Made by a program: the position numbers and the translations under genes. Shown here piece after piece: positions 25,425 through 56,767 of a stretch of DNA of 64,000 bases. The notes under the pieces were generated by a model. That model was not told the DNA's origin, did no database searches, and saw only the letters and a list, made by a program, of their open reading frames with translations. Origin of the DNA: an uncultured Gammaproteobacteria bacterium (GTDB lineage: Bacteria; Patescibacteriota; Patescibacteriia; S139-126); assembly GCA_964493305.1 (NCBI GenBank), contig CAZBLW010000001.1:305484-369483 (forward strand), in the 5' to 3' direction. The number at the start of each line of letters is the position of its first letter. Within the stretch, counting starts at the first letter, position 1.

Positions 25425-25499
25425 TTTTATAAATAATTATTAATAATTAATTTGTTTATTGTCACCGACTATAAATAAAAAATAAATTAAGTCGAGTAG

Positions 25500-25808: not shown

Positions 25809-26303
25809 ATGGAAGAATTAGTAAAAACATTTTATATTGATTGGAAATTATTATTGGCCCAACTAGTAAATTTCTTTATCGTGTTGGGAGTTTTATGGAA
25901 ATTTGCTTTAAAGCCATTGCGTCAAACTATGGATAAGAGAAGCGCCGAGATTGCTAAAAGTTTAGATCAGGCTAAAGAAATTGAACAAAAACTTAGTGAG
26001 GCGGATAAAACCAAAGTAGAAACAATACTGCAAGCCAAAAAAGAATCACAAACAATTATTGAACAAGCCCAAAAAGACGCGGACGTTTTACGTGCTAAGA
26101 AAATGACTGAGTTGAAAGTGGAAATGGAAAAAATCGTAGTCCAAACAAAAGCCAGTTTAACCAGTGAAAAAGAACAGATGTTACGAGATATAAAATCAGA
26201 AGTGGCTGATTTGGTTATTGCCGCCAGCAGCAAAATTTTAGAAAAAAACATTACTGGTGAGGATAATAAAAAAATAATTAAGTCGATTATTGAGAAAGTC
26301 TAA
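25809..26303 (+). CDS. atpF: ATP synthase Fo subunit b.
   Basis: N-terminal TM followed by a long charged helix; operon position. Confidence 0.8.
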   Translation: MEELVKTFYIDWKLLLAQLVNFFIVLGVLWKFALKPLRQTMDKRSAEIAKSLDQAKEIEQKLSEADKTKVETILQAKKESQTIIEQAQKDADVLRAKKMTELKVEMEKIVVQTKASLTSEKEQMLRDIKSEVADLVIAASSKILEKNITGEDNKKIIKSIIEKV

Positions 26304-26310
26304 ATAGATT

Positions 26311-26712
26311 ATGAAACAGATTGCCCCTAAAAAATATGCCATAAGTTTGTATGAAGTACTCGAGAGTACTGATGCCTCCCAACAGCAAGCTATACTAGCT
26401 TCTTTTGTTCAATTATTAGTTAGGCACAAAATGTTAGCTAAGCTTGATAAAATTATTAATTATTTTAAGTTATATGCTGATGAGCAGGCTAATATCAAAA
26501 CAGTAAAGTTAAATGTAGCTCAGCCACTTGATCAGACGTCTCGTCAGAATATTATTAATCATTTAGAGAAAATATTGAAATATAAAATTGAGATTGTTGA
26601 GGAAACACAGCCCGATTTAATCGGCGGAGTAATGATTGAATATGATGATATTCGTATTGATGGGAGTATCAAAAAACAACTAACAGTAATGACTAACCAA
26701 TTTAAATCATAA
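26311..26712 (+). CDS. atpH: ATP synthase delta (OSCP) subunit, short form (133 aa).
   Basis: Operon position; the C-terminal block LIGGVMIEYDDIRIDGSIKKQL is typical of delta. Confidence 0.7.
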   Translation: MKQIAPKKYAISLYEVLESTDASQQQAILASFVQLLVRHKMLAKLDKIINYFKLYADEQANIKTVKLNVAQPLDQTSRQNIINHLEKILKYKIEIVEETQPDLIGGVMIEYDDIRIDGSIKKQLTVMTNQFKS

Positions 26713-26742
26713 ATAAAAATTTTTAAATAATAAAATTATTTT

Positions 26743-28284
26743 ATGTCGAATAAAGATTATATTATCGATCAACTAAAAAAACAGATTATTGATTTTAAAA
26801 GCGCCGCTATCAAAGAGAAAGTTGGCACCGTTGAAGAGATCGGTGACGGTGTGGCTAGAATATCTGGTCTTTCCGAAGTTATGGCTTCAGAAATGATTGA
26901 ATTTTCTGGTGGTAAATACGGCGTAGCGTTGAATTTGGAAAATGATACTATTGGCGCTATTGTGTTGGGTGAATCAGAAAGTATCAAAGAGGGTGATACA
27001 GTAAAAAGCACTGGTAGAATTTTAGCCGTGCCAGTAGGTGAGCAATTGATTGGCAGAGTAGTAGATCCCTTGGGTCAACCGATTGATAATAAAGGTGAGA
27101 TTAAAACCGATCATTATTATCCGGTAGAAAAAATCGCTCCTCGGGTTATTACCCGTCAAAAAGTTAGTACGCCACTACAAACAGGCGTCAAGTCAATTGA
27201 TTCGATGATTCCAATTGGTCGGGGACAAAGAGAATTGATTATTGGCGACAGACAAACCGGAAAAACTGCTTTAGCCATTGATACAATTATTAACCAAAAG
27301 GGTAAAGGGGTGATATGTATTTATGTGGCTATAGGACAAAAAGAATCTAAAATTGCTCGTATTGTTGCTGATTTAGAAAAATATGGAGCAATGGATCATA
27401 CTATCGTGGTTTTAGCTGGAGCGTCTGATTCGGCTTCTTTGTCATTTATTGCTCCTTACGCTGGTTGCGCGATGGGTGAATATTTTATGGATCAAGGTAA
27501 AGATGTCTTGGTAGTATATGATGATTTATCAAAGCACGCTTGGGCTTATCGTCAGATTTCTTTACTGTTAAAAAGGCCACCAGGACGTGAAGCTTACCCT
27601 GGAGACGTATTCTATCTTCATTCACGCTTATTGGAACGAGCAGCTAAATTAAATAAAGATTATGGAGGCGGATCTTTGACTGCTTTACCAATAATTGAAA
27701 CTCAAGCGGGTGATATTTCTGCTTATATTCCAACCAATGTAATTTCTATTACTGATGGTCAGATATTTTTGGAGTCAGATTTATTTTATCAGGGTATAAG
27801 GCCGGCATTAAACGTTGGTTTGTCAGTTTCTCGAGTTGGTAGCGCCGCACAAATTAAAGCCATGAAAAAAGTGGCTGGAAAATTGAGATTAGATCTGGCT
27901 CAATATCGAGAATTGGCGGCTTTTGCTCAATTTGGTTCGGATTTAGATGAGGTGACTAGAAATCAAATTGAACGAGGTAAAAGATTGACGGAAATTTTGA
28001 AGCAAGGCCAATATGAACCGATGCCAGTGGCTAATCAGGTAGCGATTTTATATGCCGCAGTAAATGGTTTACTTGATGATGTTTCAGTTGAAAGAATAAA
28101 AGAATTTGAAGGAGCTTTCCATACTTTTATGAATAATTCTCATAGTAAATTGTTGGAGTCGATTGTAAAAATTGGAGAAATAACTGAAGACATTGATCAA
28201 CAGTTACGTCAAGCTATAGAAGATTTTAAAAAAATGTCTGACTTTAGTGTCTCGGCTACAGAAGACGAAGCAGTAATTAATTAA
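26743..28284 (+). CDS. atpA: ATP synthase F1 alpha subunit.
   Basis: [10 protein letters not shown]-loop, plus the DDLSKHA and [32 protein letters not shown] blocks. Confidence 0.95.
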
Positions 28285-28304
28285 TTTGGTTTTTAATTTT
28301 ATTT

Positions 28305-29228
28305 ATGCCTTTAGCAACTAGAGAAATAAAAAGAAGAATTCGTTCAGTTTCTAGTACTCGCAAAATCACCAAAGCGATGGAATTGGTAGCTGGTGCTAAA
28401 ATGCGACGAGCAGTTAAGGCGGTATTGCAAACCCGAAGTTATGCCAATGCAGCTTGGGAGGTAGTAAAAAATTTATCTGATAAAACTGATACCAGTAAAC
28501 ATCCACTTTTGCAGAAGAGGGAACGCGTGAAAAAAGTAGGAGTAATTTTAATAGCATCCAATCGTGGCTTGTGTGGTAGTTTTAATCGGGAAATTGTTGA
28601 GGTGGTGGCTAATTACATAAAAAATCATAAAAATGAAAATATTAATATTGAGGCTGAGGTGTTTTTGATGGGTAATCGCGGTAAAGATATTATGTTTCGT
28701 CATGGCCATGAGGTAGTTGCGGAATTTACTAAATTTGATGTAACTACTAGGGTAAGCGAAGTTACGCCCTTGGCACAAATGGCGATACAGGACTATATTT
28801 CTGGCAAGTACGACAAAATTGTTATGGCTTATACAGATTATAAATCAGCTATTGTCCAAGAACCCCGTATTCGTAAATTACTACCAATTGATCGACAAGA
28901 TGATGAATTGGGTTATGTCGGTAAAAATGATAAGAATGCATTTCTGGCAGACCAGATAGCTTTTGAAAAAAATGAGTATTTATTTGAACCATCACCTGAT
29001 GTGGTGTTGGAACAGATGTTACATCGTTTAGTAGAATTACAGATTTATCAAGCTTTGTTGGAATCAAATGCTTCGGAACACAGTGCTAGAATGATGGCTA
29101 TGCGTAATGCCTCTGATGCAGCACTTGATATGATTGATAGTTTGACTATGACTTTCAACCGCGCCCGACAACAAAATATAACCACTGAACTGGCAGATAT
29201 TTCAGCCGGTCGCGCAGCAGTTGAATAA
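28305..29228 (+). CDS. atpG: ATP synthase F1 gamma subunit.
   Basis: IKRRIRSVSSTRKITKAMELVAGAKMRRA and the C-terminal ITTELADISAGRAAV. Confidence 0.9.
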   Translation: MPLATREIKRRIRSVSSTRKITKAMELVAGAKMRRAVKAVLQTRSYANAAWEVVKNLSDKTDTSKHPLLQKRERVKKVGVILIASNRGLCGSFNREIVEVVANYIKNHKNENINIEAEVFLMGNRGKDIMFRHGHEVVAEFTKFDVTTRVSEVTPLAQMAIQDYISGKYDKIVMAYTDYKSAIVQEPRIRKLLPIDRQDDELGYVGKNDKNAFLADQIAFEKNEYLFEPSPDVVLEQMLHRLVELQIYQALLESNASEHSARMMAMRNASDAALDMIDSLTMTFNRARQQNITTELADISAGRAAVE

Positions 29229-29236
29229 TTTTATAA

Positions 29237-30652
<1,416 letters not shown>

Positions 30653-30677
30653 TTATTGCCAGTAGCTATTTATAGTT

Positions 30678-31112
30678 ATGAAAAAAATTAAATTTGAAAT
30701 AATCACTCCCGAAAGAGTTGTCTATAAAGCTGAAGTTGATAGTATTACTATTCCTACCTCAACCGGAGAAATTACTGTTTTGCCAGATCATATTCCTTTA
30801 ATTTCTTTGTTGGTGCCAGGCGAGTTACATGTGAAAATTGGCAATGAAGAAGAATTAATGGCAGTGTCTGGGGGATTTATTGAAGTTCGCAAGGATAAAG
30901 TGGTAATTCTTTCTGATACCGCTGAACTGGCTCACGAAATTGATTTAGCAGCCGTGGAGGAAGCAAAAGCTAGAGCAGAAAAATTATTGCGAGAAAAACA
31001 GACTGAAAAGATTGACTATGTAGCCTTGGCAGCTAATTTAGAAAGAGAATTAGCTCGCCTCAAAGTGGGCAATAAATATAAACGTATTAGACGGCAAAAA
31101 CCAACCGAATAA
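30678..31112 (+). CDS. atpC: ATP synthase F1 epsilon subunit.
   Basis: Beta-sandwich domain plus helical hairpin, and operon position. Confidence 0.85.
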   Translation: MKKIKFEIITPERVVYKAEVDSITIPTSTGEITVLPDHIPLISLLVPGELHVKIGNEEELMAVSGGFIEVRKDKVVILSDTAELAHEIDLAAVEEAKARAEKLLREKQTEKIDYVALAANLERELARLKVGNKYKRIRRQKPTE

Positions 31113-32587: not shown

Positions 32588-32632
32588 GATTACACCTGAA
32601 TTTATTTGATTGTTAATGATAGGAATAAGATA

Positions 32633-32660
32633 ATTTATCATAAAAATAAAGTTTTGTCAA
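32633..32660 (-). promoter_or_regulatory. Sigma-70 promoter with an extended -10.
   Basis: On the minus strand: TTGACA-16-tgATAAAT. Confidence 0.45.
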
Positions 32661-32689
32661 TCATATCTAAGGATGTTAAAATAAGTATT

Positions 32690-35600
32690 ATGGAGATAAA
32701 TCTAGATAATTTAAATAATGAGCAAAAACAGGCAGTGACTCATGGTGATGGCCCCTTGTTAATCGTTGCGGGCGCTGGCACTGGTAAAACCACAGTCATT
32801 ACTCAACGGATAAACTGGTTGATTCAAGAAAAAAAAATAGCCACTGATCAAATATTAGCTTTGACTTTTACGGAAAAAGCCGCTGGAGAAATGGAAGAAA
32901 GGATTGATAAGGCTTTACCTTATGGTTATGTGGAATTATGGGTTTCAACTTTTCATGCTTTTTGCGAAAGGATTTTGCGATTACACGCTCTTGATATCGG
33001 ATTGTCAACAAATTTTAAATTACTAGATCAAACTCAAGGGTGGTTGCTGATTAAAAAAAATTTGGAAAAATTTGCACTTGATTATTATCGTCCTTTAGGT
33101 AATCCGACTAAATTTATCCATGCCCTATTGCAACATTTTTCACGATGTAAAGATGAAGAAATATACCCCCAAGATTATTTGCGTTATGCTGAGGAGTTGA
33201 AAATAAATCTTGATGATATGGAGGGAAGTAAAGGAAATTCTAGAATTAAGAATAAAGAATTAAGAATTAAAGGTAAAAACAATGAGATTAGTGAACAAGA
33301 AATTGATAGGTTGAATGAAGTGGCCAATGCTTATCACACTTATCAACAAATATTGTTGGCAAATAATTCATTGGATTTTGGTGATTTGATAAATTACACT
33401 TTAAAATTATTTAAAACCAGACCGCAAATTCTTCAAAAATATCAGCAACAATTTAAGTATGTTTTAGTTGATGAATTTCAGGATACCAATTGGGCGCAAT
33501 ATGAATTGATTAAATTGTTAGCCAGACCTAAAAACAATATCACCGTAGTCGGTGATGATGACCAATCTATTTATAAATTTCGGGGAGCATCAGTTTCCAA
33601 TATTTTAAATTTTAAAAAAGATTTTCCTAAGGCAAGGGAGGTATTTCTCCAAACCAATTACCGCAGTGGGCAAGAAATTTTAGATTTAGCATACAATTTT
33701 ATCCAACTCAATAACCCCGACAGGTTGGAAATAAAACTCTCTACTCGTAGTCAGAAATTATCCAAACAACTGCTAGCTTATCATCAGCCAGTCAGTATGG
33801 TTAGTTATGATTTTTATGATTCATTGGAGCAAGAGGTAGAAAAAGTGGTGGATAATATTATGACCTTAAAAGAACAAGACCAAGAAACAAGTTGGAATGA
33901 TTTTGCTATCTTGGTGCGAGCTAATGATAGTGCTACTGAATTTATTCAGGAATTAGAGAATCGACAAATACCTTTTCAATTTTTAGCTTCCCGGGGGTTA
34001 TATTTTAAGCCGGTTATTTTGGATATAATCAATTATCTCCGTTTACTTGATGATTATCGGGAATCACCCTCGTTGTATCGCATACTGAATTTACCGGTTT
34101 TGAAAATTACTGAACAACAAATAATAAATTTAAATTATTGGTCCGGTCGCAAAGCCTGGTCTTTATTTGAAACCTTGCGTAATATTGCCACTATCAACAA
34201 CGTCAGCCCAGAAACCATAAAGGAAGTAAATAAATTGTTAGCTTGGATAGATAGACACACCAAATTAGCCAAGGATAAACCAGTAACCAAAGTAATAATG
34301 TCTTTTTTAGAAGACACTGGTTACAGTCAATATTTATCTAAACTTGAACCCAACAAAGCTCAAAATGCGATTGGTTATTTGAATCAGTTTTTAACTAAAG
34401 CCCGAGACTTTGAACGCAGTTTAGTTGATAATAGGGTTAGTGATTTTTTGGATGAGTTGGAAATGGAATTGGAAGCTGGGGAGCAAGGTAGTTTGTCTTG
34501 GCAGTTTGATACCGGACCAGAAGCTGTAAGTATAATGACTGTTCATGGAGCTAAAGGTTTGGAATTTAAGTATGTATTTATACCCAATTTAGTTGATAAA
34601 CGTTTTCCGACAATTGAGAGAAAAGAACCAATTGCCTTGCCTGATAAATTGATTAAGGATATTTTGCCCGAGGGGGATGCTCATATACAAGAAGAAAGAC
34701 GTTTGTTGTATGTGGCTATCACCCGAGCCAGGAGTGGTTTGTTTTTGTCAGGTGCCAAAGATTATGGGGGAGTGCGTGAAAAAAAACCCAGTCAGTTTTT
34801 GTATGAGTTAGGCATGGTCAGTAATCAAAACCAGACAAATAAAAAAGATACAAAAAAAACAGTAAGTAAGGTTAATAAAAATAGCTCCTCAAATTCGCCA
34901 GTAAGATCTTACGAACTACAACTACCTAAAACTTTTTCTTATAGTCAAATTAGTTCTTTTTTAGCCTGTCCTTTACAATATAAATTTGCCTATATTTTAA
35001 AAATACCGGTAAAAGGTAAATATACTTTTAGTTTTGGCAGTACAATTCATCAGACTTTGCAAAGGTTTTTTGAGCTGGTAAAATCCAGCGTGACTTTAAA
35101 ACAAACAGATTTATTTAATAAATCGGAAAATAACGCCAATAAATTACCTACCCTTGATGATTTAAGGCAAATTTATGAACAAGCCTGGATTGATGATTGG
35201 TATGATTCTAAATTACAACAGGAACAGTATAAGAAAAAAGGCAAATTAGCTTTAGAAAAATTTTATCAAGATTGGGCAAAAGAAAAAAATATTCCTGAAA
35301 GATTGGAAAACAGATTTAAATTGCAAGTGGGCGAGTTTGTTTTATCTGGTGCCATTGACCGGGTTGATAGATTGGCCGACAATAGTTTAGAAATAATTGA
35401 TTATAAAACTGGCAGTGCTAAGGAAAAATTGGAAACAGACAACAAGCGGCAGTTATTGATTTATCAGCTAGCGGCTAACCAGCATTTAAAAGAACAGGTA
35501 GGAAAACTTACTTATTATTATATCGAAGAGGGGAAAAAACTTTCCTTTTTAGGCAGTGATCAGGATTTAACAGATCTTAAAGAAAAGATTGTTACCACTA

Positions 35601-35701
35601 TTAAGGAAATGAAAAAAAGTGACTTTGCTCCCACTCCCAGTCCTCAGTTGTGTAAGTTTTGCGATTTCAATAAAATTTGTGAATATTCACAGGCGAAGTG
35701 A
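32690..35701 (+). CDS. UvrD/PcrA-type SF1 helicase fused to a C-terminal RecB/Cas4-like PD-(D/E)XK nuclease with a four-Cys cluster (AddA-like helicase-nuclease).
   Basis: AGAGTGKTT, VLVDEFQDTN, VVGDDDQSIYKFRGA, TVHGAKGLEF, VAITRAR. C-terminus has GAIDRVD…EIIDYKTG and Cys at FLACP plus CKFCDFNKIC. The start is taken at MEINLDNL; the track ORF begins at 32606. Confidence 0.85.
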   Translation: MEINLDNLNNEQKQAVTHGDGPLLIVAGAGTGKTTVITQRINWLIQEKKIATDQILALTFTEKAAGEMEERIDKALPYGYVELWVSTFHAFCERILRLHALDIGLSTNFKLLDQTQGWLLIKKNLEKFALDYYRPLGNPTKFIHALLQHFSRCKDEEIYPQDYLRYAEELKINLDDMEGSKGNSRIKNKELRIKGKNNEISEQEIDRLNEVANAYHTYQQILLANNSLDFGDLINYTLKLFKTRPQILQKYQQQFKYVLVDEFQDTNWAQYELIKLLARPKNNITVVGDDDQSIYKFRGASVSNILNFKKDFPKAREVFLQTNYRSGQEILDLAYNFIQLNNPDRLEIKLSTRSQKLSKQLLAYHQPVSMVSYDFYDSLEQEVEKVVDNIMTLKEQDQETSWNDFAILVRANDSATEFIQELENRQIPFQFLASRGLYFKPVILDIINYLRLLDDYRESPSLYRILNLPVLKITEQQIINLNYWSGRKAWSLFETLRNIATINNVSPETIKEVNKLLAWIDRHTKLAKDKPVTKVIMSFLEDTGYSQYLSKLEPNKAQNAIGYLNQFLTKARDFERSLVDNRVSDFLDELEMELEAGEQGSLSWQFDTGPEAVSIMTVHGAKGLEFKYVFIPNLVDKRFPTIERKEPIALPDKLIKDILPEGDAHIQEERRLLYVAITRARSGLFLSGAKDYGGVREKKPSQFLYELGMVSNQNQTNKKDTKKTVSKVNKNSSSNSPVRSYELQLPKTFSYSQISSFLACPLQYKFAYILKIPVKGKYTFSFGSTIHQTLQRFFELVKSSVTLKQTDLFNKSENNANKLPTLDDLRQIYEQAWIDDWYDSKLQQEQYKKKGKLALEKFYQDWAKEKNIPERLENRFKLQVGEFVLSGAIDRVDRLADNSLEIIDYKTGSAKEKLETDNKRQLLIYQLAANQHLKEQVGKLTYYYIEEGKKLSFLGSDQDLTDLKEKIVTTIKEMKKSDFAPTPSPQLCKFCDFNKICEYSQAK
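33238..33275. repeat. Heptad-repeat element inside the UvrD-like helicase coding sequence (TCTAGAA TTAAGAA TAAAGAA TTAAGAA TTAAAGG, translating to SRIKNKELRIKGK).
   Basis: Same (C/G)TAGAA(TTAAGAA)n structure as the other copies. Lies in a variable surface region between helicase motifs. Confidence 0.55.
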
Positions 35702-35745
35702 AGTTAGTATAAAGTATTAAGAAGTAAGTATTAAGTATAAAAATA
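35702..35745. repeat. Diverged heptad array (…AGTATTA AGAAGTA AGTATTA AGTAT…) immediately after the UvrD-like stop codon.
   Basis: Period-7 units related to the 56731 array. Confidence 0.35.
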
Positions 35746-44674: not shown

Positions 44675-44819
44675 TTTAATTCATAATTATTAATTATTAA
44701 ATAATTTTAAATTTTTAAATACCGCTTCTAATCCCATCATATAGTTGTTAATATTTTTGCTTATACATTTTGGATTTATTTAAAAATTACAAAATTACCA
44801 AATTTTAAATTTATATTAT

Positions 44820-47964: not shown

Positions 47965-48378
47965 ATGAATTTTGTTAGTTTAGATATTGTAATTAAATTA
48001 GTAGTAGCAATTTTTCTCGCTGGTATTGTTGGTTGGCAGAGAGAAAAAACTAAAACTCCAGCCGGGTTACGTACTCATATGTTGGTAGCCTTGGGTGCTA
48101 CTGTTTTTACAGTGATTGCTTATGAACTTGGTTTAGGTGCAATTGATACCACTAGAATTACAGCTGGAATTGTTACCGGGGTAGGTTTTTTGGGAGCCGG
48201 TACTATAATTCACCAATCAGACACTGTACGCGGACTTTCTACTGCCGCTTCAATCTGGACTGTTGCGGCTGTAGGAATGGCTGTTGGTTATGGAATGTAT
48301 TTTTTGGCCGTAGTTGGCTCGATTTTGACTTTTTTAATTTTGATGTTAGAAGGAGTAGAAAAGAAATTAATTAAATAA
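47965..48378 (+). CDS. MgtC/SapB-family membrane protein (N-terminal membrane domain only).
   Basis: LAGIVGWQREKTKTPAGLRTHMLVALGATVFT is the MgtC signature. Confidence 0.65.
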   Translation: MNFVSLDIVIKLVVAIFLAGIVGWQREKTKTPAGLRTHMLVALGATVFTVIAYELGLGAIDTTRITAGIVTGVGFLGAGTIIHQSDTVRGLSTAASIWTVAAVGMAVGYGMYFLAVVGSILTFLILMLEGVEKKLIK

Positions 48379-48381
48379 TCA

Positions 48382-48807
48382 ATGAAAGTAAAAATAAAAT
48401 TAGTTGATAAGTCTTTACCTCTACCGCAATACCAAACTTCAGGCGCGGTAGCTTTTGATTTATATGCTCGAGAGCAACTAGTAATTAAGCCTAAAAGTAT
48501 TTGTAAAATTCCAACAAACTTAATTATTCAAGTTCCAGAAGGCTATATGTTGCAATTAAAAGATCGTTCGTCAACCGCACAAAAAAAAGGTTTAATGATG
48601 GTTGGTGGAGTGATAGATCAAGATTTTCATGGGCCTGATGATGAGATATGTTTTCAAGTTTATAATTTTACTGATCAGGCAGTTACCGTTACTAGAGAAG
48701 AAAGAATCGGTCAAGCTATGTTTATTAAAATTGATCAAGCTGAATGGGAAGAGGTGACTACAGATATTAAGTCAGCAAGTCGAGGTGGCTTTGGTAGCAC
48801 AGGTTAG
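48382..48807 (+). CDS. dut: dUTP diphosphatase.
   Basis: GAVAFDLYA, DRSSTAQKKGL, GVIDQDFHG, RIGQAMF and the C-terminal SRGGFGSTG are dUTPase motifs 1-5. Confidence 0.85.
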   Translation: MKVKIKLVDKSLPLPQYQTSGAVAFDLYAREQLVIKPKSICKIPTNLIIQVPEGYMLQLKDRSSTAQKKGLMMVGGVIDQDFHGPDDEICFQVYNFTDQAVTVTREERIGQAMFIKIDQAEWEEVTTDIKSASRGGFGSTG

Positions 48808-48830
48808 TAAAATTTCTTAATTTTTTATTC

Positions 48831-48869
48831 GTAACTCGTAATTCCTAATTCTTAATTCTTAATTCTACC
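48831..48869. repeat. Array of 5 tandem heptanucleotides (GTAACTC GTAATTC CTAATTC TTAATTC TTAATTC + TACC). Reverse complement is GGTAGAATTAAGAATTAAGAATTAGGAATTAC…. Sits immediately 5' of the thyA ATG.
   Basis: Strict period 7; near-identical to the elements inside miaA and the UvrD-like gene. Confidence 0.6.
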
Positions 48870-48873
48870 ATCA

Positions 48874-49746
48874 ATGCAAGCCTATCTTGATATCGTAAAA
48901 AATATTTTAGAAAATGGTCAACAAAAAACCGATCGAACTGGTACCGGTACTTTAGCTATTGCTGGAGCTATGTTTCAACACGACATGAGTAAAGGTTTTC
49001 CCTTACTGACGACTAAAAAAATCCCTTTTCGTTTAGTAGCATCAGAGCTTGAATTTTTTATCAAAGGAATTACTGATAAAAAATGGTTGCAAGATAGGAA
49101 TAATCATATTTGGGATGAATGGTGCACACCGCTTAAAGTACCTTATGCTCATGATAAGGAAACCAAAGAAAAAATGTTAGCAGAAAGAGATTTGGGAACT
49201 ATTTATGGCTGGGAATGGCGTCACTTTGGGGCAAACTATCAGGATTATCAAACCGATTATACCGGACAGGGTGTTGATCAACTCACAAGAGTAGTGGAAA
49301 CACTTAAGACCAAACCTGATAGCCGGCAAATGGTAGTGGTAGCTTGGAATCCGATGGATATTGATAAAGCGATTCCGCCTTATTGTCATTATGCTTGGCA
49401 GGTAACTGTTATTAACAATCGCCTTAATTTATTTTGGAGTCAACGTAGTGTTGATGTGGCCTTGGGATTGCCGTTTAATATTGCCAGTTACGCTACCTTA
49501 TTGCATTTGTTAGCAAAAGAGACTGGTTTTGCTGAAGGAATATTAACCGGGTTTTTAGCTGATACTCATGTTTATTTAAATCATATTGACGGCTTAAAAG
49601 AACAATTGTCTAGAGATCCAAATAAATATAAATTACCACAGATTAAAACCGATAATTTTAATTCCATTTTTGATTGGCAGTATACAGATAGTGAAATTAT
49701 AGGTTACGAAAGTTATCCAACTATTAAATTTGATATTGCGGTATGA
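48874..49746 (+). CDS. thyA: Thymidylate synthase (ThyA type).
   Basis: DRTGTGT…, the catalytic-Cys region PPYCHYAWQV and the RSVDVALGLPFNIASYA block. Confidence 0.9.
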   Translation: MQAYLDIVKNILENGQQKTDRTGTGTLAIAGAMFQHDMSKGFPLLTTKKIPFRLVASELEFFIKGITDKKWLQDRNNHIWDEWCTPLKVPYAHDKETKEKMLAERDLGTIYGWEWRHFGANYQDYQTDYTGQGVDQLTRVVETLKTKPDSRQMVVVAWNPMDIDKAIPPYCHYAWQVTVINNRLNLFWSQRSVDVALGLPFNIASYATLLHLLAKETGFAEGILTGFLADTHVYLNHIDGLKEQLSRDPNKYKLPQIKTDNFNSIFDWQYTDSEIIGYESYPTIKFDIAV

Positions 49747-50225
49747 TAAATATTATTGCGGCGGTGGCCAAAAACAATGTGATTGGTCAAGGTAATGATT
49801 TACCTTGGCATATCCCTGAAGATTTAAAGCATTTCCAAAATTTAACCAATGGTAAAACCGTACTAATGGGGAGCAATACTTTTGAATCAATTGTTAAACG
49901 ATTAGGAAAACCATTGCCCAATCGTCGTAATATTGTTGTTACTTTAAACAAAGATTATCAAGTACCACCGGGCGTGGAAGTATATTATTCGTTAGTTGAA
50001 GCAGTACAAAATTTAAAAAATGAAGAAATTTGGGTTATTGGTGGAGCTAGTATTTATCAACAAATGATGCCTTGGGCAAACAAATTATATATTACCGAGG
50101 TTGATATCGAACCTTTAGGAGATACTTACTTTCCCGTGATTAATAAAGATTATTGGCAAGAGATTGCTAGACAAAAAAATCAAGGTTTCGATTTCGTAGA
50201 ATATGAAAGGATAAATTATGAATAA
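49743..50225 (+). CDS. folA: Dihydrofolate reductase.
   Basis: MINIIAAVAKNNVIGQGNDLPWHIPEDLKHF…VLMGSNTFESI. Confidence 0.85.
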   Translation: MINIIAAVAKNNVIGQGNDLPWHIPEDLKHFQNLTNGKTVLMGSNTFESIVKRLGKPLPNRRNIVVTLNKDYQVPPGVEVYYSLVEAVQNLKNEEIWVIGGASIYQQMMPWANKLYITEVDIEPLGDTYFPVINKDYWQEIARQKNQGFDFVEYERINYE

Positions 50226-50895
50226 AGGAAAATTAATAGTTATTGATGGTGGCGATGGATCAGGTAAATCTACCCAGGTTGATTTGTTAATTGAGCGCTT
50301 ACAAGCTGAAGGTAGGCAAGTGGCAAAAATAGATTTTCCTAGATATTCTCAACCATCAGCCTGGTTTGTTGAGAGTTATTTAAATGGTCAATTTGGTAGT
50401 TTAGATGAAATTGGTCCTTATCAGGCATCGGTTTTTTATGCTTTAGATAGATTTGCCATAAAAAAACAGATAGAGCAGATGTTAAAGGAAGGTACTTTGT
50501 TAATAGCCAATCGTTATGTTTCTGCAAATATGGGTCACCAGGGAGCTAAAATCAAGGATAAAGAGGAAAGATTAAAATTTTTTAATTGGTTAGATGATTT
50601 TGAGTTTAATATTTTAGGAATTCCCCGCCCTGATGCCACAATAATTCTGCACGTTCCCGCTCAAGTTGCCCAAGATTTAGTAGATAAAAAAGGTCATCGC
50701 GATTATATTGGTGGAATTAAGAGAGATTTGCATGAAAGTAATTTAGAACACTTGCAAATGGCAGAAAAAGTTTTTTTGGAATTAGCTCGGCAGTTTGAAA
50801 ATTTTTATACGGTTGAGTGTTATGAAGCGGGGAGTTTATTGACAAAGTCGGAAATAAATCATAAAATTTATCATATTTTAAATAAAATTATTTAA
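50218..50895 (+). CDS. tmk: Thymidylate kinase.
   Basis: LIVIDGGDGSGKSTQ P-loop and the DRF block (ALDRFA). Confidence 0.85.
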   Translation: MNKGKLIVIDGGDGSGKSTQVDLLIERLQAEGRQVAKIDFPRYSQPSAWFVESYLNGQFGSLDEIGPYQASVFYALDRFAIKKQIEQMLKEGTLLIANRYVSANMGHQGAKIKDKEERLKFFNWLDDFEFNILGIPRPDATIILHVPAQVAQDLVDKKGHRDYIGGIKRDLHESNLEHLQMAEKVFLELARQFENFYTVECYEAGSLLTKSEINHKIYHILNKII

Positions 50896-50914
50896 CAATT
50901 TATTAGGAGGTAAT

Positions 50915-51208
50915 ATGTTCTTTGATTTAAATAGTTGTTTTCAGTTTGAGACGGTTGTTGAAAAAGAATTTGATTTAGATCAAGAGATTGATTCCCTGGC
51001 TATGGCCATAAAAATTCGTACTTTAGTAGTACCTTTAGGACAAAGATGCCCTGTTATTTTGGAGAATTTTCTTGCCAAAGAGGAAAAATATAGACAAAAA
51101 TTAAAACAAATATTTTTTTATCGCCATCACCACAAGGGATTCAAGGAAGCCAATCTTTGGCTTAAAAATTTTTTTTATCACCGTTGGCAACTATTGCAGC
51201 AATTTTAA
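50915..51208 (+). CDS. Hypothetical protein (97 aa).
   Basis: Strong RBS TAGGAGG and a terminator immediately downstream. Confidence 0.5.
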   Translation: MFFDLNSCFQFETVVEKEFDLDQEIDSLAMAIKIRTLVVPLGQRCPVILENFLAKEEKYRQKLKQIFFYRHHHKGFKEANLWLKNFFYHRWQLLQQF

Positions 51209-51213
51209 ATATA

Positions 51214-51237
51214 GGGTTCAAACAGAACCCTTTTTTT
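51214..51237 (+). terminator. Rho-independent terminator.
   Basis: GGGTTC-aaaca-GAACCC followed by T7. Confidence 0.75.
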
Positions 51238-51278
51238 ATTATTTTTGATGTGATAAAATAAATAATAATTATTTTATT

Positions 51279-52778
51279 ATGCAATTAGAACCAGTTATAG
51301 GTTTGGAAATTCATGTGCAACTGAAGACAAAAACCAAGATGTTTTGCGCTTGCGCTAATGAATTTGATATCAACATCCCCAATAAAAATATTTGTCCAAT
51401 CTGTACAGGTCACCCGGGTGTTTTGCCTACGGTCAATGAACAGGCAATTAATTTAGCAGTTAAAGCTGCTTTGGCTTTAAATTTGCATGTTAATGAACAT
51501 TCAAAATTTGATAGAAAAAGTTATTTTTATCCTGATTTACCTAAAGGTTATCAAATATCTCAATACGAGCAACCTTTAGCTGCCAATGGTTATTTAGAAA
51601 TTTTATTAAATGATGGAGATCGAAAATTTGGTATAGAAAGATTACATTTAGAAGAAGATGCTGCAAAAAATTTTCATCAAGAAGATTATGCGTTAATTGA
51701 TTTTAATCGTGCTGGCACACCTTTGGCTGAAATCGTCACTCGGCCGGATTTTAAATCTCCCACAGAAGCTAAAATATTTTTACAAGAGTTAAGGTCGATT
51801 ATGAGATTATTGAACGTATCCGACGCTGATATGGAGAAAGGACAACTTCGTTGTGATGCCAATATTTCTTTACGCCCGGCTGGTGATACAAAACTTTATC
51901 CTAAAACGGAAATAAAGAACTTAAACTCATTTCGGTCAGTTGAGCGAGCGTTAGAATACGAAATAGTTAGACAGACAAAATTATGGCAAGACAATAACAG
52001 GCCAGACAGCCAAAGTACCAGAGGTTGGGACGAACAAGCAGGTATCACAGTTGAACAACGTGTAAAAGAAGAGGCTAGTGATTATCGTTATTTTCCTGAG
52101 CCAGATTTGCCACCCCTGATATTGAATCAGGATTATATCGATAAAATTAAAAAACAATTGCCTGAATTACCAAATTCAAAACGGCATCGTCTAATTGCTG
52201 AATATGGCTTTAAATTGGCAGAAGTAAATATTTTTATATCCCTACCGGGTTTTGATTTATATGCAGAACAGGTGCATTCCGAATTTTTAGCTTGGTTGGA
52301 GTCTGGTGATGAAGTCATAGGCACTGCGGGAGAAATTCACGATCAGTATAAAGATAAGATTGCTAAATTAGTAGCAAGTTGGTTGCTGAACAATTTGTTA
52401 CAACTCATGAATAAATCAGGTGAAACAATCGATCAGATAAAAATTACGCCAGAAAATATGGCAGAATTTTTGCGTCTAGTTTTTACTAGGAGGGTTAATT
52501 CTACTGCTGCTCAAAAAATTTTAGAAATCATGTATGATACCGGGGGCGACCCTTCAAATATTATGGAAGAGTATGATCTACAGCAAACCAACAGTGCTGA
52601 TATTGAAGATTTAGTCAAAGAGGCAATAGTTGAAAATGAAAGTCAAGTAATACAATATCAGCAGGGGAAAGTAGCAGTAATTAAGTTTTTAATTGGGGCG
52701 GTAATGAAAAAATCCAAAGGGAAGGCTGACCCCCAGGCGGTGGAAGAAATGCTTATTAAATTTTTAAAAACAGACTAA
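51279..52778 (+). CDS. gatB: Asp-tRNA(Asn)/Glu-tRNA(Gln) amidotransferase subunit B.
   Basis: EPVIGLEIHVQLKTKTKMFCAC…CPICTGHPGVLP. gatC and gatA are not adjacent. Confidence 0.9.
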   Translation: MQLEPVIGLEIHVQLKTKTKMFCACANEFDINIPNKNICPICTGHPGVLPTVNEQAINLAVKAALALNLHVNEHSKFDRKSYFYPDLPKGYQISQYEQPLAANGYLEILLNDGDRKFGIERLHLEEDAAKNFHQEDYALIDFNRAGTPLAEIVTRPDFKSPTEAKIFLQELRSIMRLLNVSDADMEKGQLRCDANISLRPAGDTKLYPKTEIKNLNSFRSVERALEYEIVRQTKLWQDNNRPDSQSTRGWDEQAGITVEQRVKEEASDYRYFPEPDLPPLILNQDYIDKIKKQLPELPNSKRHRLIAEYGFKLAEVNIFISLPGFDLYAEQVHSEFLAWLESGDEVIGTAGEIHDQYKDKIAKLVASWLLNNLLQLMNKSGETIDQIKITPENMAEFLRLVFTRRVNSTAAQKILEIMYDTGGDPSNIMEEYDLQQTNSADIEDLVKEAIVENESQVIQYQQGKVAVIKFLIGAVMKKSKGKADPQAVEEMLIKFLKTD

Positions 52779-52784
52779 TTTTGT

Positions 52785-52812
52785 TTGACTTTTTATATTG
52801 GCAGAGTAAAAT
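52785..52812 (+). promoter_or_regulatory. Candidate promoter.
   Basis: TTGACT-16-TAAAAT, then AGGAGG-GTG. Confidence 0.45.
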
Positions 52813-52850
52813 ATTAACTTAGTTATTTAACAATTAAATTAGGAGGAAAT

Positions 52851-53264
52851 GTGCGCACCCTGGTGCTTTTTTTTATTTACATATTGGTTGATAATATTTA
52901 TTGTCAACACAACCAGTCATTAACTAGTGGCCAAATTCAAGATTTCTCCCAAAAACTGTATTATAGTATTTGGCAAAAGGATCTTGACTGGCTAGTCATT
53001 AATTTGCCGGATTCATTTTTAGTTGGGGAAGCCTATTCAGAGGCTTGTTATTGTCCTAGAGAAAAAGTTTTAAGTTGGTTTAGTGCTGAAAATTCTCATT
53101 TACCGTCACCAACAGAAATAAAATTGACTGTTTGTTCAATAAGTGATTTAGAAAAAATATTAATTTTTTCTTACCACAACAATTTATTATTTACTTTTGT
53201 AATTCAAAACCAGTCGGCTAATATTATTAGCTTAGGAGTAGGTAAATATTTACTATCACCTTAA
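52851..53264 (+). CDS. Hypothetical secreted protein (137 aa, N-terminal signal peptide, 5 Cys), with a GTG start.
   Basis: AGGAGG lies 5 nt upstream of the GTG; the N-terminus is hydrophobic. Confidence 0.5.
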   Translation: MRTLVLFFIYILVDNIYCQHNQSLTSGQIQDFSQKLYYSIWQKDLDWLVINLPDSFLVGEAYSEACYCPREKVLSWFSAENSHLPSPTEIKLTVCSISDLEKILIFSYHNNLLFTFVIQNQSANIISLGVGKYLLSP

Positions 53265-53266
53265 TC

Positions 53267-53291
53267 GGCAGTTTAAAAAACTGCCTTTTTT
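53267..53291 (+). terminator. Rho-independent terminator.
   Basis: GGCAGTTT-aaa-AAACTGCC followed by T6. Confidence 0.7.
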
Positions 53292-53296
53292 AATAC

Positions 53297-53325
53297 TTGA
53301 CAAAAGAATAGAAATTAGATATATT
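53297..53325 (+). promoter_or_regulatory. Sigma-70 promoter.
   Basis: TTGACA-17-TATATT. Confidence 0.5.
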
Positions 53326-53387
53326 TAGCAGTCATTTATTGACTTGAGTTTGTATCTTAAAAATTTATTAATAATCACGGAGGTGTT

Positions 53388-54431: not shown

Positions 54432-54432
54432 T

Positions 54433-55377
54433 TTAATTTTGTAAAAAATTTTTTATTAATTTTTCCGCGGTTTGAAAATTTTTTATCCAAATAATATTTT
54501 TATCTCGTCTAAACCAAGTGAGTTGGCGTTTGGCATAATGTCTAGTTTCAGTTTTTATAATTTCAATTGCTTGAGCTTTGTTTATTTGTTTATTTAAATA
54601 CATTTGTAGCTGTTTGTAGCCAATCCCAGACATTGACGGAAGTGAAGTTGAATAAGTTTTAGTTAATTTTTTAGTTTCTGAAATTAGACCATTTTTTATC
54701 ATTTTATCAACTCGTTGGTTTATTCGTTGGTAAAGTTTTTCTCGGGGTATATCCAAACCAATTTGTAAAAATTGATAAGATTGTTTTTTATTAGTCTTGG
54801 GTTCAAAAACACGTTGATTGGTTAAAATATATTCCAAGGCCCTGATAATTTTTCTTTTATTTTTTTTGTCAATGATTTGGTAAGTATTGGGATCAAGATT
54901 TTTTAGTTGACGGTTTAGTTTTGGTAAAGTTTGTTGGGCTAATTTTTTTCTTAAAATCAAATCAAGTTTACCTTGGGGTAAATCATAATTATTAACCAAA
55001 GCCGAAATATAAAGTCCAGTACCACCACAGATTATTGGAATTTGAAATTTAGAATTTAGAATTTTTGAGTTTAATATTTTTTTAGTTATTTGCAACCAAT
55101 CTGCCAAAGTAAACGATTTATTTGGTTTAGAATAGTCCATTAAAAAATGAGGTATGCCTTGGACATAGTAAATATTATTATGCAATTCCTTAATTCTTAA
55201 ATCTAACTTCTTAATTCTACCCTTAGGTTTGGCAGTGCCAATATTCATACCTTGATAAATCTGTCTTGAATCAGCTGAAATTATGTAACCTTTGAATTTT
55301 TTGGCTATTTTTAAAGCCAGTTCAGTTTTACCCGAGGCCGTAGGACCTAAAATAACCACAATTTTTTGTTTAGTCAT
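54433..55377 (-). CDS. miaA: tRNA dimethylallyltransferase, carrying an in-frame repeat-encoded insertion.
   Basis: VVILGPTASGKTELALKIA P-loop and QIYQGMNIGTAKP. The next conserved block (GIPHFLMD) is separated by the extra peptide KGRIKKLDLRIKELHNN. Confidence 0.85.
   Translation of the reverse strand: MTKQKIVVILGPTASGKTELALKIAKKFKGYIISADSRQIYQGMNIGTAKPKGRIKKLDLRIKELHNNIYYVQGIPHFLMDYSKPNKSFTLADWLQITKKILNSKILNSKFQIPIICGGTGLYISALVNNYDLPQGKLDLILRKKLAQQTLPKLNRQLKNLDPNTYQIIDKKNKRKIIRALEYILTNQRVFEPKTNKKQSYQFLQIGLDIPREKLYQRINQRVDKMIKNGLISETKKLTKTYSTSLPSMSGIGYKQLQMYLNKQINKAQAIEIIKTETRHYAKRQLTWFRRDKNIIWIKNFQTAEKLIKNFLQN
55186..55222. repeat. Heptad-repeat element inside the miaA coding sequence. Coding strand reads GGTAGAA TTAAGAA GTTAGAT TTAAGAA TTAAGGA ATTGCAT, which translates to GRIKKLDLRIKELH.
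   Basis: Near-identical to the intergenic array at 48831-48869; period 7 with reading frame maintained. Confidence 0.55.
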
Positions 55378-56695: not shown

Positions 56696-56730
56696 AAATT
56701 CGTGCTTTGTATTATATAGAATAAAGAAGT

Positions 56731-56767
56731 AAGAAGCAAGAATTAAGTATTAAGTATTTTGATTGGT
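56731..56767. repeat. Diverged heptad array (AGAAGTA AGAAGCA AGAATTA AGTATTA AGTATTT) in the miaB upstream region.
   Basis: Period-7 tandem units sharing the AAGAATTAAG core. Confidence 0.4.

What the first reader, a model, noticed from the sequence alone, without database searches (positions are those of the whole stretch)
33238..33275. Heptanucleotide (TTAAGAA)n repeat element inserted in frame inside a UvrD-like helicase gene
The sequence TCTAGAATTAAGAATAAAGAATTAAGAATTAAAGG (period 7) sits inside the ORF and is translated as SRIKNKELRIKGK, in a variable region between conserved helicase motifs. Near-identical elements occur in the dut-thyA spacer (48831-48869) and inside miaA. This resembles the Rickettsia palindromic elements, which also colonise ORFs in frame.
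Basis: seen in the sequence. Interest (0 to 1): 0.66.

Follow-up and report, generated by a model that had tools for sequence, protein, structure and literature searches.

The report
Heptamer DNA repeat inside helicase gene
A short 7-base tandem repeat, one of a family scattered mostly between genes in this tiny-genome (Patescibacteria) bacterium, is translated as a floppy surface loop of a DNA-repair helicase, and similar repeats turn up in frame in many core enzymes of related bacteria.

Summary
Window 33242-33272 is (AGAATTA)4+AAG, read in frame as RIKNKELRIK inside a UvrD/PcrA-type helicase-nuclease. The peptide falls in a disordered loop between motifs Ia and II.

It belongs to a family of period-7 arrays in this Patescibacteria genome. 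Period 7 gives 5 arrays against 0.4 expected, and periods 8-11 give none. Six of nine arrays lie in the 7% of the window that is intergenic. All strict arrays are within one mismatch of AGAATTA.

The array is not a recent insertion. Four orthologues at 74-81% identity carry it, all with the T-to-A change that removes the in-frame TAA a perfect array would create. The closest relative has (AGGCAAA)4 on the same positions and register. Distant orthologues carry other heptamer arrays there.

The same 30-nt element lies in frame in MiaA. Metagenome contigs show it in LeuRS, IleRS, PolA, RecR, TatD and others, sometimes replacing a native hairpin without changing length.

It is not RPE-like: about 30 nt, no hairpin.

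The closest known systems are dispersed heptanucleotide repeats (TAACTGA, STRR). The most likely mechanism is slippage and homogenisation in 7-nt register, tolerated in permissive loops. Copying between loci is not excluded. I rate it a new variant of a known kind.

The parts
33242..33272 (+). Coding heptamer array: AGAATTA AGAATAA AGAATTA AGAATTA AAG, 10 codons reading RIKNKELRIK. Codon 5 (AAA, 33254-33256) would be TAA in a perfect array.
32690..35701 (+). Host gene: UvrD/PcrA-type helicase fused to a PD-(D/E)XK nuclease. 1003 aa from Met at 32690; the mechanical ORF starts at 32606. The array encodes aa 185-194, inside the disordered loop 183-199.
35702..35741 (+). Intergenic period-7 array directly after the helicase stop (AGTATAA AGTATTA AGAAGTA AGTATTA AGTATAA). 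It is followed by a terminator-like hairpin. L083 and L086 have AGAATNT-type arrays at the same place.
48814..48866 (-). Intergenic array filling the dut-thyA spacer. On the minus strand it reads AGAATTA x3, GGAATTA, CGAGTTA, CGAATAA, AAAATTA. It ends 7 nt before the thyA ATG. A species about 78% identical (L091) keeps it at the same length; L092 has a different heptamer there.
55188..55218 (-). Coding array in miaA: AGAATTA AGAAGTT AGATTTA AGAATTA AGG, reading RIKKLDLRIK. It lies in a loop absent from solved MiaA structures and has the same four-unit architecture as the helicase copy.
55038..55064 (-). Second miaA array. The coding strand reads AAATTCT AAATTCT AAATTTC AAATTC (KILNSKFQIP), which is the reverse complement of AGAATTT units. 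The in-frame TAA is replaced by CAA. L092 has (TACCAAM)n at the same site.
56718..56758 (+). Intergenic array upstream of miaB, which is on the minus strand: AGAATAA AGAAGTA AGAAGCA AGAATTA AGTATTA AGTATTT. It abuts a conserved TATAAT (56716-56711, minus strand) and lies downstream of a terminator hairpin (56834-56812). About 7 units here against about 11 in L091.
44676..44721 (.). Weaker AT-only period-7 array (ATAATTA/TTAATTA) in the nusG-rplK spacer. The spacer is 146 nt here against 73 nt in L083.

Best explanation
The element is a heptanucleotide simple-sequence repeat. It belongs to a lineage-wide population of period-7 arrays whose dominant unit in this clade is AGAATTA and its one-base variants. 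These arrays live mainly in intergenic spacers.

I infer that they arise, persist and change unit through misalignment of DNA strands in 7-nt register. That covers slippage giving +/-7-nt steps, and length-neutral homogenisation of neighbouring units.

Inside genes, selection filters the outcome in three ways:
- only net changes that are multiples of 21 nt (3 units, 7 codons) or length-neutral changes survive;
- only permissive sites survive, such as disordered loops and hairpins whose constraints repeat every 7 residues;
- only copies in which the TAA that a perfect AGAATTA array puts in every frame has been mutated survive.

The helicase copy is therefore an old, tolerated passenger that encodes a basic disordered loop. 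It is not a mobile palindromic element, and probably not a functional module.

**Shown:** the periodicity; the family; the intergenic bias; presence in orthologues; the stop-removing substitutions; different units at the same site; 7- and 21-nt length differences; the disordered location.

**Inferred:** the misalignment mechanism and the neutrality of the peptide.
For: **Period 7 is specifically over-represented.**

**Arrays are mostly intergenic.** Six of nine arrays lie in the 7.0% of the window that is intergenic (P = 8e-6).

**Length changes come in unit steps.** The miaB-upstream array has about 7 units here and about 11 in L091, between conserved flanks. The L085 linker is exactly 21 nt longer.

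**Same site, different unit:**
- Helicase linker: AGAATTA in the window and L083, L084, L086, L087; AGGCAAA in L085, ungapped and in the same register; CAATTTN in L001; CCGAAAT/AAATMCT in L088; AAATCCA in L089 and L090.
- dut-thyA spacer: GTAGTTG type in L092.
- Second miaA site: TACCAAM in L092.
- LeuRS hairpin: AGAATTA or TTCCAAT, with no length change.

**Stop removal.** A perfect AGAATTA array has stops in all six frames. Every coding copy is altered exactly at the in-frame TAA: AAA in the helicase, TAC/TAT, TTA, GAA, CAA and others elsewhere.

**Permissive location.** The encoded loop has pLDDT below 50 between two helices. The loop is hypervariable in 34 orthologues.

**Peptide not specially conserved.** It is 75% identical in array-bearing orthologues against 74-81% gene-wide, and it is replaced entirely in the closest relative.

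**AGAATTA is not globally special.** (AGAATTA)4 gives 22 viral-contig hits; scrambled units give 18, 22 and 17.

**Literature.** Heptanucleotides are the most abundant long SSR class in many bacterial genomes, and polymerase slippage has been proposed as the cause (as summarised in PMC4679880 and PMC4692102).
Against: - Unlinked copies share more than a unit. The helicase and miaA copies have the same four-unit length and the same ends (GGT/GCT|AGAATTA ... AGAATTA|AGG). The first 28 nt of the non-coding dut-thyA array in L091 equal the helicase array, including its AGAATAA variant. Independent in-situ slippage does not predict this.
- All five strict arrays in the window are within one mismatch of AGAATTA (P about 1e-5 from composition alone).
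- The coding array has kept exactly four units in five species, so it is not behaving as an unstable microsatellite.
- Synonymous differences are fewer in the array than gene-wide: 7 of 39 against 0.42 (P = 0.0013, not phylogenetically independent). This hints at a DNA-level constraint or at conversion.
- Near-perfect AGAATTA arrays occur in 55-66% GC contigs, where local seeds should be rare.
- No polymorphism data exist. The three assemblies available are identical.
Confidence: 0.55

Rival explanations
1. It is a discrete dispersed element of about 30 nt, (AGAATTA)4AG, that is copied between loci. The copying could be by non-allelic gene conversion or template switching from other arrays, or by an unknown transposition-like process. 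It then lands in frame in ORFs.
For: - The helicase and miaA copies share ends and have identical four-unit length. There is a 28-nt identity between the helicase array and the L091 dut-thyA array, including the variant unit.
- miaA orthologues without the array are about 10 aa (30 nt) shorter.
- The same 27 fixed bases are found in frame in at least 10 further protein families in metagenomes, sometimes twice in one protein (L149).
- Unit sharing within the genome is stronger than composition predicts (P about 1e-5).
- Arrays occur in high-GC DNA.
- In L085 one array has replaced another wholesale.
Against: - No terminal inverted repeats, no hairpin and no target-site duplication are visible.
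- No associated enzyme gene lies near any copy.
- Array lengths are continuous (4 to 24 units) and not fixed.
- A perfect donor array would bring an in-frame stop into essential genes.
- In LeuRS and PolA the element replaces native residues with no length change, which is not what simple insertion gives.
- The metagenome hits were selected by the search pattern itself, and scrambled heptamers are equally common in the viral-contig control.
Confidence: 0.25
2. The arrays are functional cis-elements, and the coding copies are incidental or co-opted. They could be binding sites for a protein that reads 7-nt repeats, or promoter, UP-element or 5'-UTR regulators whose unit number tunes expression.
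For: - The dut-thyA array is conserved in position and length (66-nt spacer) between species whose proteins are about 78% identical. A different heptamer array fills the same spacer in L092.
- The miaB array abuts a conserved TATAAT and covers the -35/UP region. Its copy number differs between species.
- Synonymous divergence is reduced in the coding array.
- Precedents exist. TAACTGA repeats just upstream of start codons were proposed as translational regulators (PMC4679880). Heptanucleotide promoter repeats control hmw1A phase variation in Haemophilus (PMC8262952, listed; not read).
Against: - No experimental or expression data are available.
- Promoter-like matches in the region are not above shuffles: 44 against 40.8.
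- No Rfam family matches.
- The unit differs between lineages at the same site, which argues against a sequence-specific reader.
- The coding copies sit in unrelated proteins, in loops with no common function.
- The arrays occur in both orientations relative to transcription.
Confidence: 0.12
3. There is no repeat biology at all. An ancestral lysine/isoleucine-rich loop in an AT-rich genome happens to look periodic because of codon bias.
For: - AGA, ATT, AAG, AAT, GAA and TTA are common codons in a 34% GC genome.
- The loop is basic in most orthologues.
- In LeuRS the native hairpin (RLKDKDEKLR type) already resembles RIKNEELRIK.
Against: - Period 7 alone is enriched.
- The same unit forms non-coding arrays with stops in every frame.
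- Orthologous linkers carry other heptamer arrays encoding unrelated peptides.
- The element uses AAG where AAA would be favoured, and is identical over 27-31 nt in unrelated genes.
Confidence: 0.03

Closest known systems
TAACTGA heptamer direct repeats of marine Beggiatoaceae, cyanobacteria and Bacteroidetes (MacGregor 2015, PMC4679880)
   Same: One heptamer unit in many unlinked short tandem sets. Mostly intergenic, close to gene starts or stops. A minority lie inside ORFs, in variable surface loops. Differences between relatives come in 7-nt steps. Stop codons constrain where copies can sit. No transposition machinery or mechanism is known.
   Different: - The unit is AGAATTA and the host phylum is Patescibacteria.
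- AGAATTA has stops in all six frames, so every coding copy needs a substitution. TAACTGA is open in reverse orientation.
- Copies here sit inside core enzymes (helicase-nuclease, MiaA, LeuRS, IleRS, PolA, RecR) and not mainly at protein ends.
- The unit at a given site is replaced by other heptamers in related lineages.
Over-represented heptanucleotide long SSRs in prokaryotes, with the polymerase-slippage hypothesis (a 2007 survey, known to me only as summarised in PMC4679880 and PMC4692102); cyanobacterial STRR heptamers; GGGAATC repeats of Xanthomonas
   Same: Period 7 is favoured over neighbouring periods. The arrays are enriched in intergenic DNA. Length and sequence vary between close relatives at conserved positions.
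   Different: Those surveys report that units divisible by three dominate inside genes. Here 7-nt units are embedded in frame. The units are A+T-rich, not G-rich, so the G-quadruplex explanation offered for the Xanthomonas and Nostoc repeats does not apply.
Rickettsia palindromic elements (RPE)
   Same: A repeated DNA sequence translated in frame inside unrelated housekeeping genes, at sites compatible with the protein fold. Each copy encodes a recognisable peptide.
   Different: RPEs are about 150 bp and palindromic, and fall into ten sequence families. This element is about 30 nt of direct repeats with no hairpin. Some copies replace native residues and do not add any.
Borg tandem repeats that create disordered regions in proteins (PMC9879509)
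   Same: Nucleotide tandem repeats inside ORFs that give low-complexity, disordered peptide segments. They are A-rich, and also occur in intergenic DNA.
   Different: All Borg intragenic repeats have unit lengths divisible by three and are near-perfect and recent. Here the unit is 7 nt, the peptide period is 7 aa, and the array is imperfect by necessity and old.

Membership tests
Rickettsia palindromic elements (RPE) | Length of roughly 100-150 bp | tested here: not met
   The array is 31 nt (33242-33272). The coding copies are 30 nt and the longest window copy is 53 nt. RPE size is taken from PMC10969869.
Rickettsia palindromic elements (RPE) | Palindromic sequence able to form a stable hairpin | tested here: not met
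   dG is -0.1 to -3.2 kcal/mol and z is -1.8 to +0.7 for four window copies. No inverted repeat lies within the array.
Rickettsia palindromic elements (RPE) | In-frame presence in unrelated ORFs, encoding a conserved peptide | tested here: met
   RIKNxELRIK is found in the helicase, in MiaA and in at least 10 further Pfam families.
Rickettsia palindromic elements (RPE) | Sequence similarity to one of the RPE families | not tested
   No RPE consensus sequences were available in the tools. The length and the lack of a palindrome already exclude membership.
Heptanucleotide simple sequence repeats (long SSRs) | Head-to-tail copies of a 7-nt unit, three or more copies | tested here: met
   Tandem Repeats Finder gives period 7 with 4.3 copies. 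The units were laid out in register.
Heptanucleotide simple sequence repeats (long SSRs) | More frequent than chance and than neighbouring periods | tested here: met
   4 arrays against 0 in shuffles and 0 at periods 5, 6 and 8-12. 5 against 0.40 expected.
Heptanucleotide simple sequence repeats (long SSRs) | Copy-number change in unit steps between relatives | tested here: met
   The miaB-upstream array has about 7 units here and about 11 in L091. The L085 linker is +21 nt. The helicase array itself is constant at 4 units in five species.
Dispersed single-unit heptamer families (TAACTGA type, STRR) | The same unit at many unlinked loci of one genome | tested here: met
   Six window loci have AGAATTA-type units. 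All 5 strict arrays are within 1 mismatch (P about 1e-5). Only 64 kb of the genome was available.
Dispersed single-unit heptamer families (TAACTGA type, STRR) | Predominantly intergenic, near gene starts or ends | tested here: met
   6 of 9 arrays lie in the 7% of the window that is intergenic (P = 8e-6).
Dispersed single-unit heptamer families (TAACTGA type, STRR) | Unit identity (TAACTGA; CCCCAGT, TTGGTCA, CAACAGT) | tested here: not met
   The unit is AGAATTA. No paper with this heptamer was found in the library. The STRR units are quoted from my own knowledge.
Phase-variable contingency locus | Strain-level copy-number polymorphism that switches the frame or expression | tested here: inconclusive
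   The only same-species assemblies (L081, L082) are 100% identical. Four imperfect units conserved across five species argue against switching.
Borg-type intragenic tandem repeats | Unit length divisible by three | tested here: not met
   The unit is 7 nt. The frame is kept only because the block is 30 nt.

The most novel reading that the evidence does not exclude
Patescibacteria may have an active mutational or copying process that works in 7-nt register and overwrites both spacers and coding DNA with heptamer arrays, often without changing length. Selection then merely repairs the stop codons. Candidate processes are polymerase transient misalignment with a 7-nt preference, or a dedicated templated mechanism. 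Under this reading the process is a so far unrecognised driver of protein-loop evolution in core enzymes (helicase-nuclease, MiaA, LeuRS, IleRS, PolA, RecR). It would also explain why one array can be replaced in place by another, as with AGAATTA to AGGCAAA between proteins 85% identical.
Probability: 0.17. Interest if true: 0.85.

Novelty: new variant of a known kind. Interest (0 to 1): 0.55.

Why it matters
Heptanucleotide repeats are known to be oddly abundant in bacteria, yet nobody knows why the period is 7 or what the repeats do. The usual expectation is that only repeats with units divisible by three survive inside genes.

This locus and its relatives offer a tractable natural series:
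- the same loop of one gene carries at least five different heptamer arrays in different lineages;
- one array has been replaced by another in the same register;
- there are 7- and 21-nt length steps;
- stop codons are repaired in several different ways;
- native hairpins in essential enzymes are occupied with no change in length.

This makes the origin and turnover of heptamer arrays directly testable by comparative genomics and by polymerase slippage assays. It also warns annotators that short lysine/isoleucine-rich "insertions" in CPR proteins may be repeat DNA and not lineage-specific functional motifs.

Tried and rejected
- **Genome-collection scan.** I used exact-protein look-ups instead.
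- **Global lag-7 test.** The autocorrelation of intergenic DNA at lag 7 gives only a modest peak, and none in L084 or L087. The signal comes from a handful of arrays, not from all spacers.
- **AGAATTA as a cosmopolitan special unit.** I considered this after the metagenome scan returned at least 120 hits. I rejected it as evidence after composition-matched scrambled heptamers gave equal counts in viral contigs.
- **Purifying selection on the peptide.** The window and L083 show 13 of 13 identical residues with 4 synonymous changes. This did not hold across all orthologues, where identity is 75% and equal to the gene average, and the closest relative has replaced the peptide.
- **Second miaA array as ordinary sequence.** I first dismissed the array at 55038-55064. 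I revised that after L092 showed another heptamer array at the same site.
- **Promoter scan.** It was uninformative: 44 matches against 40.8 in shuffles.
- **Known RNA genes.** The Rfam and tRNA scans found nothing.
- **LeuRS homologue search.** It found no close relatives of the element-bearing LeuRS (best 68%), so a true filled/empty pair could not be reconstructed. It did show that the site is a native 10-residue hairpin.
- **DNA-level conservation of the LeuRS, IleRS and RecR elements**. I discounted this because the search pattern forces identity.
Full report
**1. The observation**

The reported sequence is present as described. Window 33239-33275 reads TCT AGA ATT AAG AAT AAA GAA TTA AGA ATT AAA GGT A, in the frame of ORF 32606..35701. 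In 7-nt register it is AGAATTA (33242), AGAATAA, AGAATTA, AGAATTA, AAG. Tandem Repeats Finder reports period 7 with 4.3 copies, and period 14 at 94% match.

The host protein has UvrD-helicase, UvrD_C and PD-(D/E)XK domains. Its real start is probably the Met at 32690, because an identical 1003-aa protein is on record. Homologues named by their sources are from Patescibacteria (CPR). The window is 31-36% G+C.

Two assemblies from other sequencing runs are 100% identical over 13-18 kb including the array, so the array is not an assembly artefact.

**2. It is more than chance, and period 7 is special here**

- The 14-mer TTAAGAATTAAGAA with up to 2 mismatches occurs 18 times against 4.2 expected. 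None of 100 shuffles reached 18.
- With a window of four units and at least 82% self-match, period 7 gives 4 arrays. Periods 5, 6 and 8-12 give none, and shuffles give none.
- With at least 3 units and at most 1 mismatch between neighbours, period 7 gives 5 arrays against 0.40 expected (shuffle maximum 2). Periods 8-11 give 0.
- All five strict arrays are within one mismatch of AGAATTA, allowing rotation and either strand. Only 5.6% of window heptamers are that close, so P is about 1e-5 for the other four.

**3. The family in the window**

Besides the helicase copy there are the following arrays:
- 35702-35741, directly after the helicase stop;
- 48814-48866, filling the dut-thyA spacer, with the unit on the minus strand;
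- 55188-55218 and 55038-55064, both inside miaA;
- 56718-56758, between a terminator hairpin and a conserved TATAAT upstream of miaB;
- weaker AT-only arrays at 44676-44721, 25427-25451 and 5309-5334.

Only 7.0% of the window is intergenic, yet six of nine arrays are there (P = 8e-6). No tRNA gene and no Rfam family matched anywhere in the window.

**4. Where the coding copy sits in the protein**

In an alignment of 34 orthologues the array lies in a stretch that varies from 0 to about 40 residues. The conserved flanks are ...NLDxME and QEIxRLNEVANAYH.

Against solved PcrA, residues 5-163 align to 9-161 and residues 211-352 to 173-313. The 47 residues in between correspond to about 11 residues of PcrA. 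They lie between motif Ia (TFT) and motif II (DEFQD).

An AlphaFold model (mean pLDDT 77) has pLDDT below 50 for residues 183-199. Those residues span the array peptide, which sits between helices 160-179 and 197-224.

**5. The orthologue test**

DNA from syntenic loci was fetched by exact-protein look-ups and gave the following:
- Four species at 74-81% protein identity (L083, L084, L086, L087) carry the same four-unit array at the same place.
- All four have AGAATAA (AAT AAA) or AAT AAT at codon 5. The array is therefore ancestral to this clade and not a recent insertion in this genome.
- Orthologues at 65% identity or below lack the peptide.
- The closest relative (L085, 85% identity) has (AGGCAAA)4. 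In a pairwise alignment this lies ungapped on the same positions and in the same register as (AGAATTA)4. Its linker is exactly 21 nt longer just downstream.
- L086 has, next to the array, a G+C-rich palindrome translated in frame (dG -17.6 kcal/mol, z -5.3).
- Distant orthologues with long linkers also carry period-7 arrays with other units. Lag-7 self-match is 0.86 in L001 (CAATTTN), 0.86 in L088 (CCGAAAT/AAATMCT), 0.81 in L090 and 0.71 in L089. Those with short linkers carry none.

**6. Stop codons explain the imperfection**

A perfect AGAATTA array reads RIKN*EL in every forward frame and *FLILNS in every reverse frame. It therefore cannot be translated in any of the six frames.

Each coding copy departs from the consensus exactly at the in-frame TAA:
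- AAA in the helicase (T-to-A at 33254);
- AAG TTA or AAG GTA in miaA of the window and of L091;
- TAT in L092 miaA;
- CAA in the second miaA array.

**7. miaA**

The array at 55188-55218 encodes RIKKLDLRIK. It lies in a stretch absent from solved MiaA structures, between GTAKP and GIPHxL.

Across 34 orthologues this loop is again hypervariable:
- RIKNYELRIK-type peptides, or decayed versions of them, occur down to 54% identity.
- Orthologues without them are about 10 residues shorter.
- Others carry peptides typical of translated G+C-rich palindromes.

The second miaA array was at first dismissed as ordinary sequence. It sits where L092 has (TACCAAM)n.

**8. Intergenic copies across species**

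- The dut-thyA array is kept at the same spacer length (66 nt) in L091. L092 has a GTAGTTG-type heptamer array in the same spacer.
- The miaB-upstream array has about 7 units here and about 11 in L091, between conserved flanks.
- Promoter-like matches in the region are not above shuffles, at 44 against 40.8. A regulatory role is therefore only a possibility.

**9. Copies resemble each other beyond the unit**

The helicase and miaA copies share the same architecture: GGT or GCT, then four units, then AGG, with the same 30-nt length. The first 28 nt of the non-coding dut-thyA array of L091 equal the helicase array, including its AGAATAA variant. This is the main evidence for copying between loci.

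**10. Beyond this clade**

Eighty loci were returned, holding 83 matches:
- 34 are perfect, stop-containing arrays.
- 21 lie in ORFs of 100 codons or more, as RIKNxELRIK with x = L, E, N, S, Y, Q, C, D or F.

Pfam identifies the hosts as LeuRS, IleRS, RmlD, family-A DNA polymerase, TatD, an HD/CCA-type enzyme, ATP-dependent DNA ligase, a GT1 glycosyltransferase, RecR and a CarboxypepD_reg protein.

This list was selected by the search pattern, which forces 27 identical bases. The high DNA identity of the elements between diverged LeuRS genes therefore carries little weight.

A control matters here. In viral contigs (AGAATTA)4 gives 22 stretches, and three scrambled units of the same composition give 18, 22 and 17. 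AGAATTA is thus not globally special. What holds is unit sharing within this clade, and the fact that heptamer arrays do sit in frame in many proteins.

**11. Insertion or replacement?**

An unbiased sample of LeuRS orthologues shows that the segment between G(R/K)SxGAE(I/V)xF and VFTTRPDT is natively 10 residues in 69 of 92 proteins, for example RLKDKDEKLR or KIKDSSEIIK. RIKNEELRIK there is therefore length-neutral.

Other Patescibacteria have PISNFQFQIK-type peptides in the same 10 positions. In L292 (51% G+C) the DNA reads TTCCAAT TTCCAAT TACCAAT TTCCAAT TCC, with lag-7 self-match 0.75.

The native hairpin needs hydrophobic residues at positions 2 and 9. Those are 7 residues apart, which is 21 nt or three units, and a heptamer array satisfies that spacing automatically.

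In PolA the element likewise adds no length relative to the Pfam model. In RecR, TatD and MiaA there is a net gain.

**12. Mechanism**

I favour in-register misalignment, combined with the selective filters set out in the best explanation. It would work as slippage in 7-nt steps, plus length-neutral homogenisation of adjacent units.

This accounts for the period preference, the intergenic bias and the unit-step length differences. It also accounts for the same-site, different-unit pattern, the in-place array replacement in L085 and the length-neutral cases.

It does not by itself explain the shared ends, length and variant unit among unlinked copies. Nor does it explain the arrays in high-GC DNA. 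Copying between loci is therefore kept as a serious rival, at 0.25.

A functional role for the spacer arrays remains possible but untested. For the peptide:
- Amino-acid identity among array-bearing orthologues is 75%, the same as the gene average.
- The closest relative has replaced the peptide altogether.
- Synonymous differences are fewer than gene-wide, at 7 of 39 against 0.42 (P = 0.0013). These comparisons are not independent, and codon bias is strong.

**13. Comparison with what is known**

- **Heptanucleotide SSRs.** They are reported as the most abundant long SSR class in many bacteria, with polymerase slippage proposed as the cause (as summarised in PMC4679880 and PMC4692102).
- **TAACTGA repeats.** This is the closest described system. 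It has 169 sets in one genome, mostly just upstream of start codons. Ten sets lie inside ORFs in the stop-free orientation, including one in a variable surface loop. Strains differ by 7-nt indels, and no mechanism is known.
- **RPEs.** These are about 150 bp palindromic elements. The present arrays fail on both length and hairpin.
- **Borg intragenic repeats.** All have unit lengths divisible by three.
- **Literature gaps.** No paper in the library mentions the AGAATTA heptamer, or heptamer repeats in Patescibacteria.

**14. Verdict**

The feature is real and is correctly described at sequence level. It is a member of a dispersed heptanucleotide repeat family and not an RPE-like mobile palindrome.

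It is a new variant of a known kind. The new aspects are:
- the phylum;
- a unit with stops in all six frames;
- in-frame, partly length-neutral occupation of core enzymes;
- turnover of units at fixed sites.

Interest is moderate, at 0.55.

Noticed in passing
L086 1-9318, compared with window 25809-31112: A close relative (helicase 81% identical) has a V/A-type ATPase operon (V_ATPase_I, AC39, F, A, B, D subunits). It sits at the syntenic position where the window, L084 and L087 have the F-type atp operon.
   Followed up: no
L086 about 10595-10650; L089 helicase linker; MiaA loops of P0162, P0189, P0215, P0240: G+C-rich palindromic inserts are translated in frame in the same permissive loops, giving peptides such as SNSSHPPLKIRGGEGGVM and LPLLGGVRGG. 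The L086 insert folds at -17.6 kcal/mol (z -5.3). This is a second class of ORF coloniser and is closer to RPE or REP elements than the heptamer arrays are.
   Followed up: partly
L120, L136, L168 (metagenome contigs, 55-65% G+C): Near-perfect (AGAATTA)4-5 arrays lie just downstream of stop codons. Each is paired with an inverted copy 25-50 nt away, forming AT-rich inverted-repeat islands in G+C-rich DNA.
   Followed up: no
L084 13028-15489; L087 13011-17968: Two to four tandem genes with PEP-utilizers domains are inserted between the helicase and the Na+/H+ exchanger in two relatives. They are absent from the window.
   Followed up: no
window 48000-57500: Intrinsic-terminator-like hairpins are far above expectation, at 27 against 6.0 in shuffles. 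One example is 56834-56812, upstream of the miaB array. Sigma-70-like promoter matches are not enriched, at 44 against 40.8.
   Followed up: no
window 1-64000: No tRNA gene and no Rfam family at gathering threshold was found in 64 kb of a gene-dense (93% coding) region.
   Followed up: no
L017 2200, 2257, 15322 (minus strand): Another CPR genome has three dispersed copies of TGAATTATGAATTAAG. The same 14-mer lies in the dnaE gene of the window (63520, minus strand) and of L091.
   Followed up: no
L149, L160, L164, L158, L148 (metagenome ORFs): Host proteins that carry RIKNxELRIK often contain further heptamer-like peptides, such as IQNSKFKI, KIKNQKSKIKITNQNLKI and a second RIKNDEVRIK. Single proteins may therefore be hit at several sites.
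   Followed up: no
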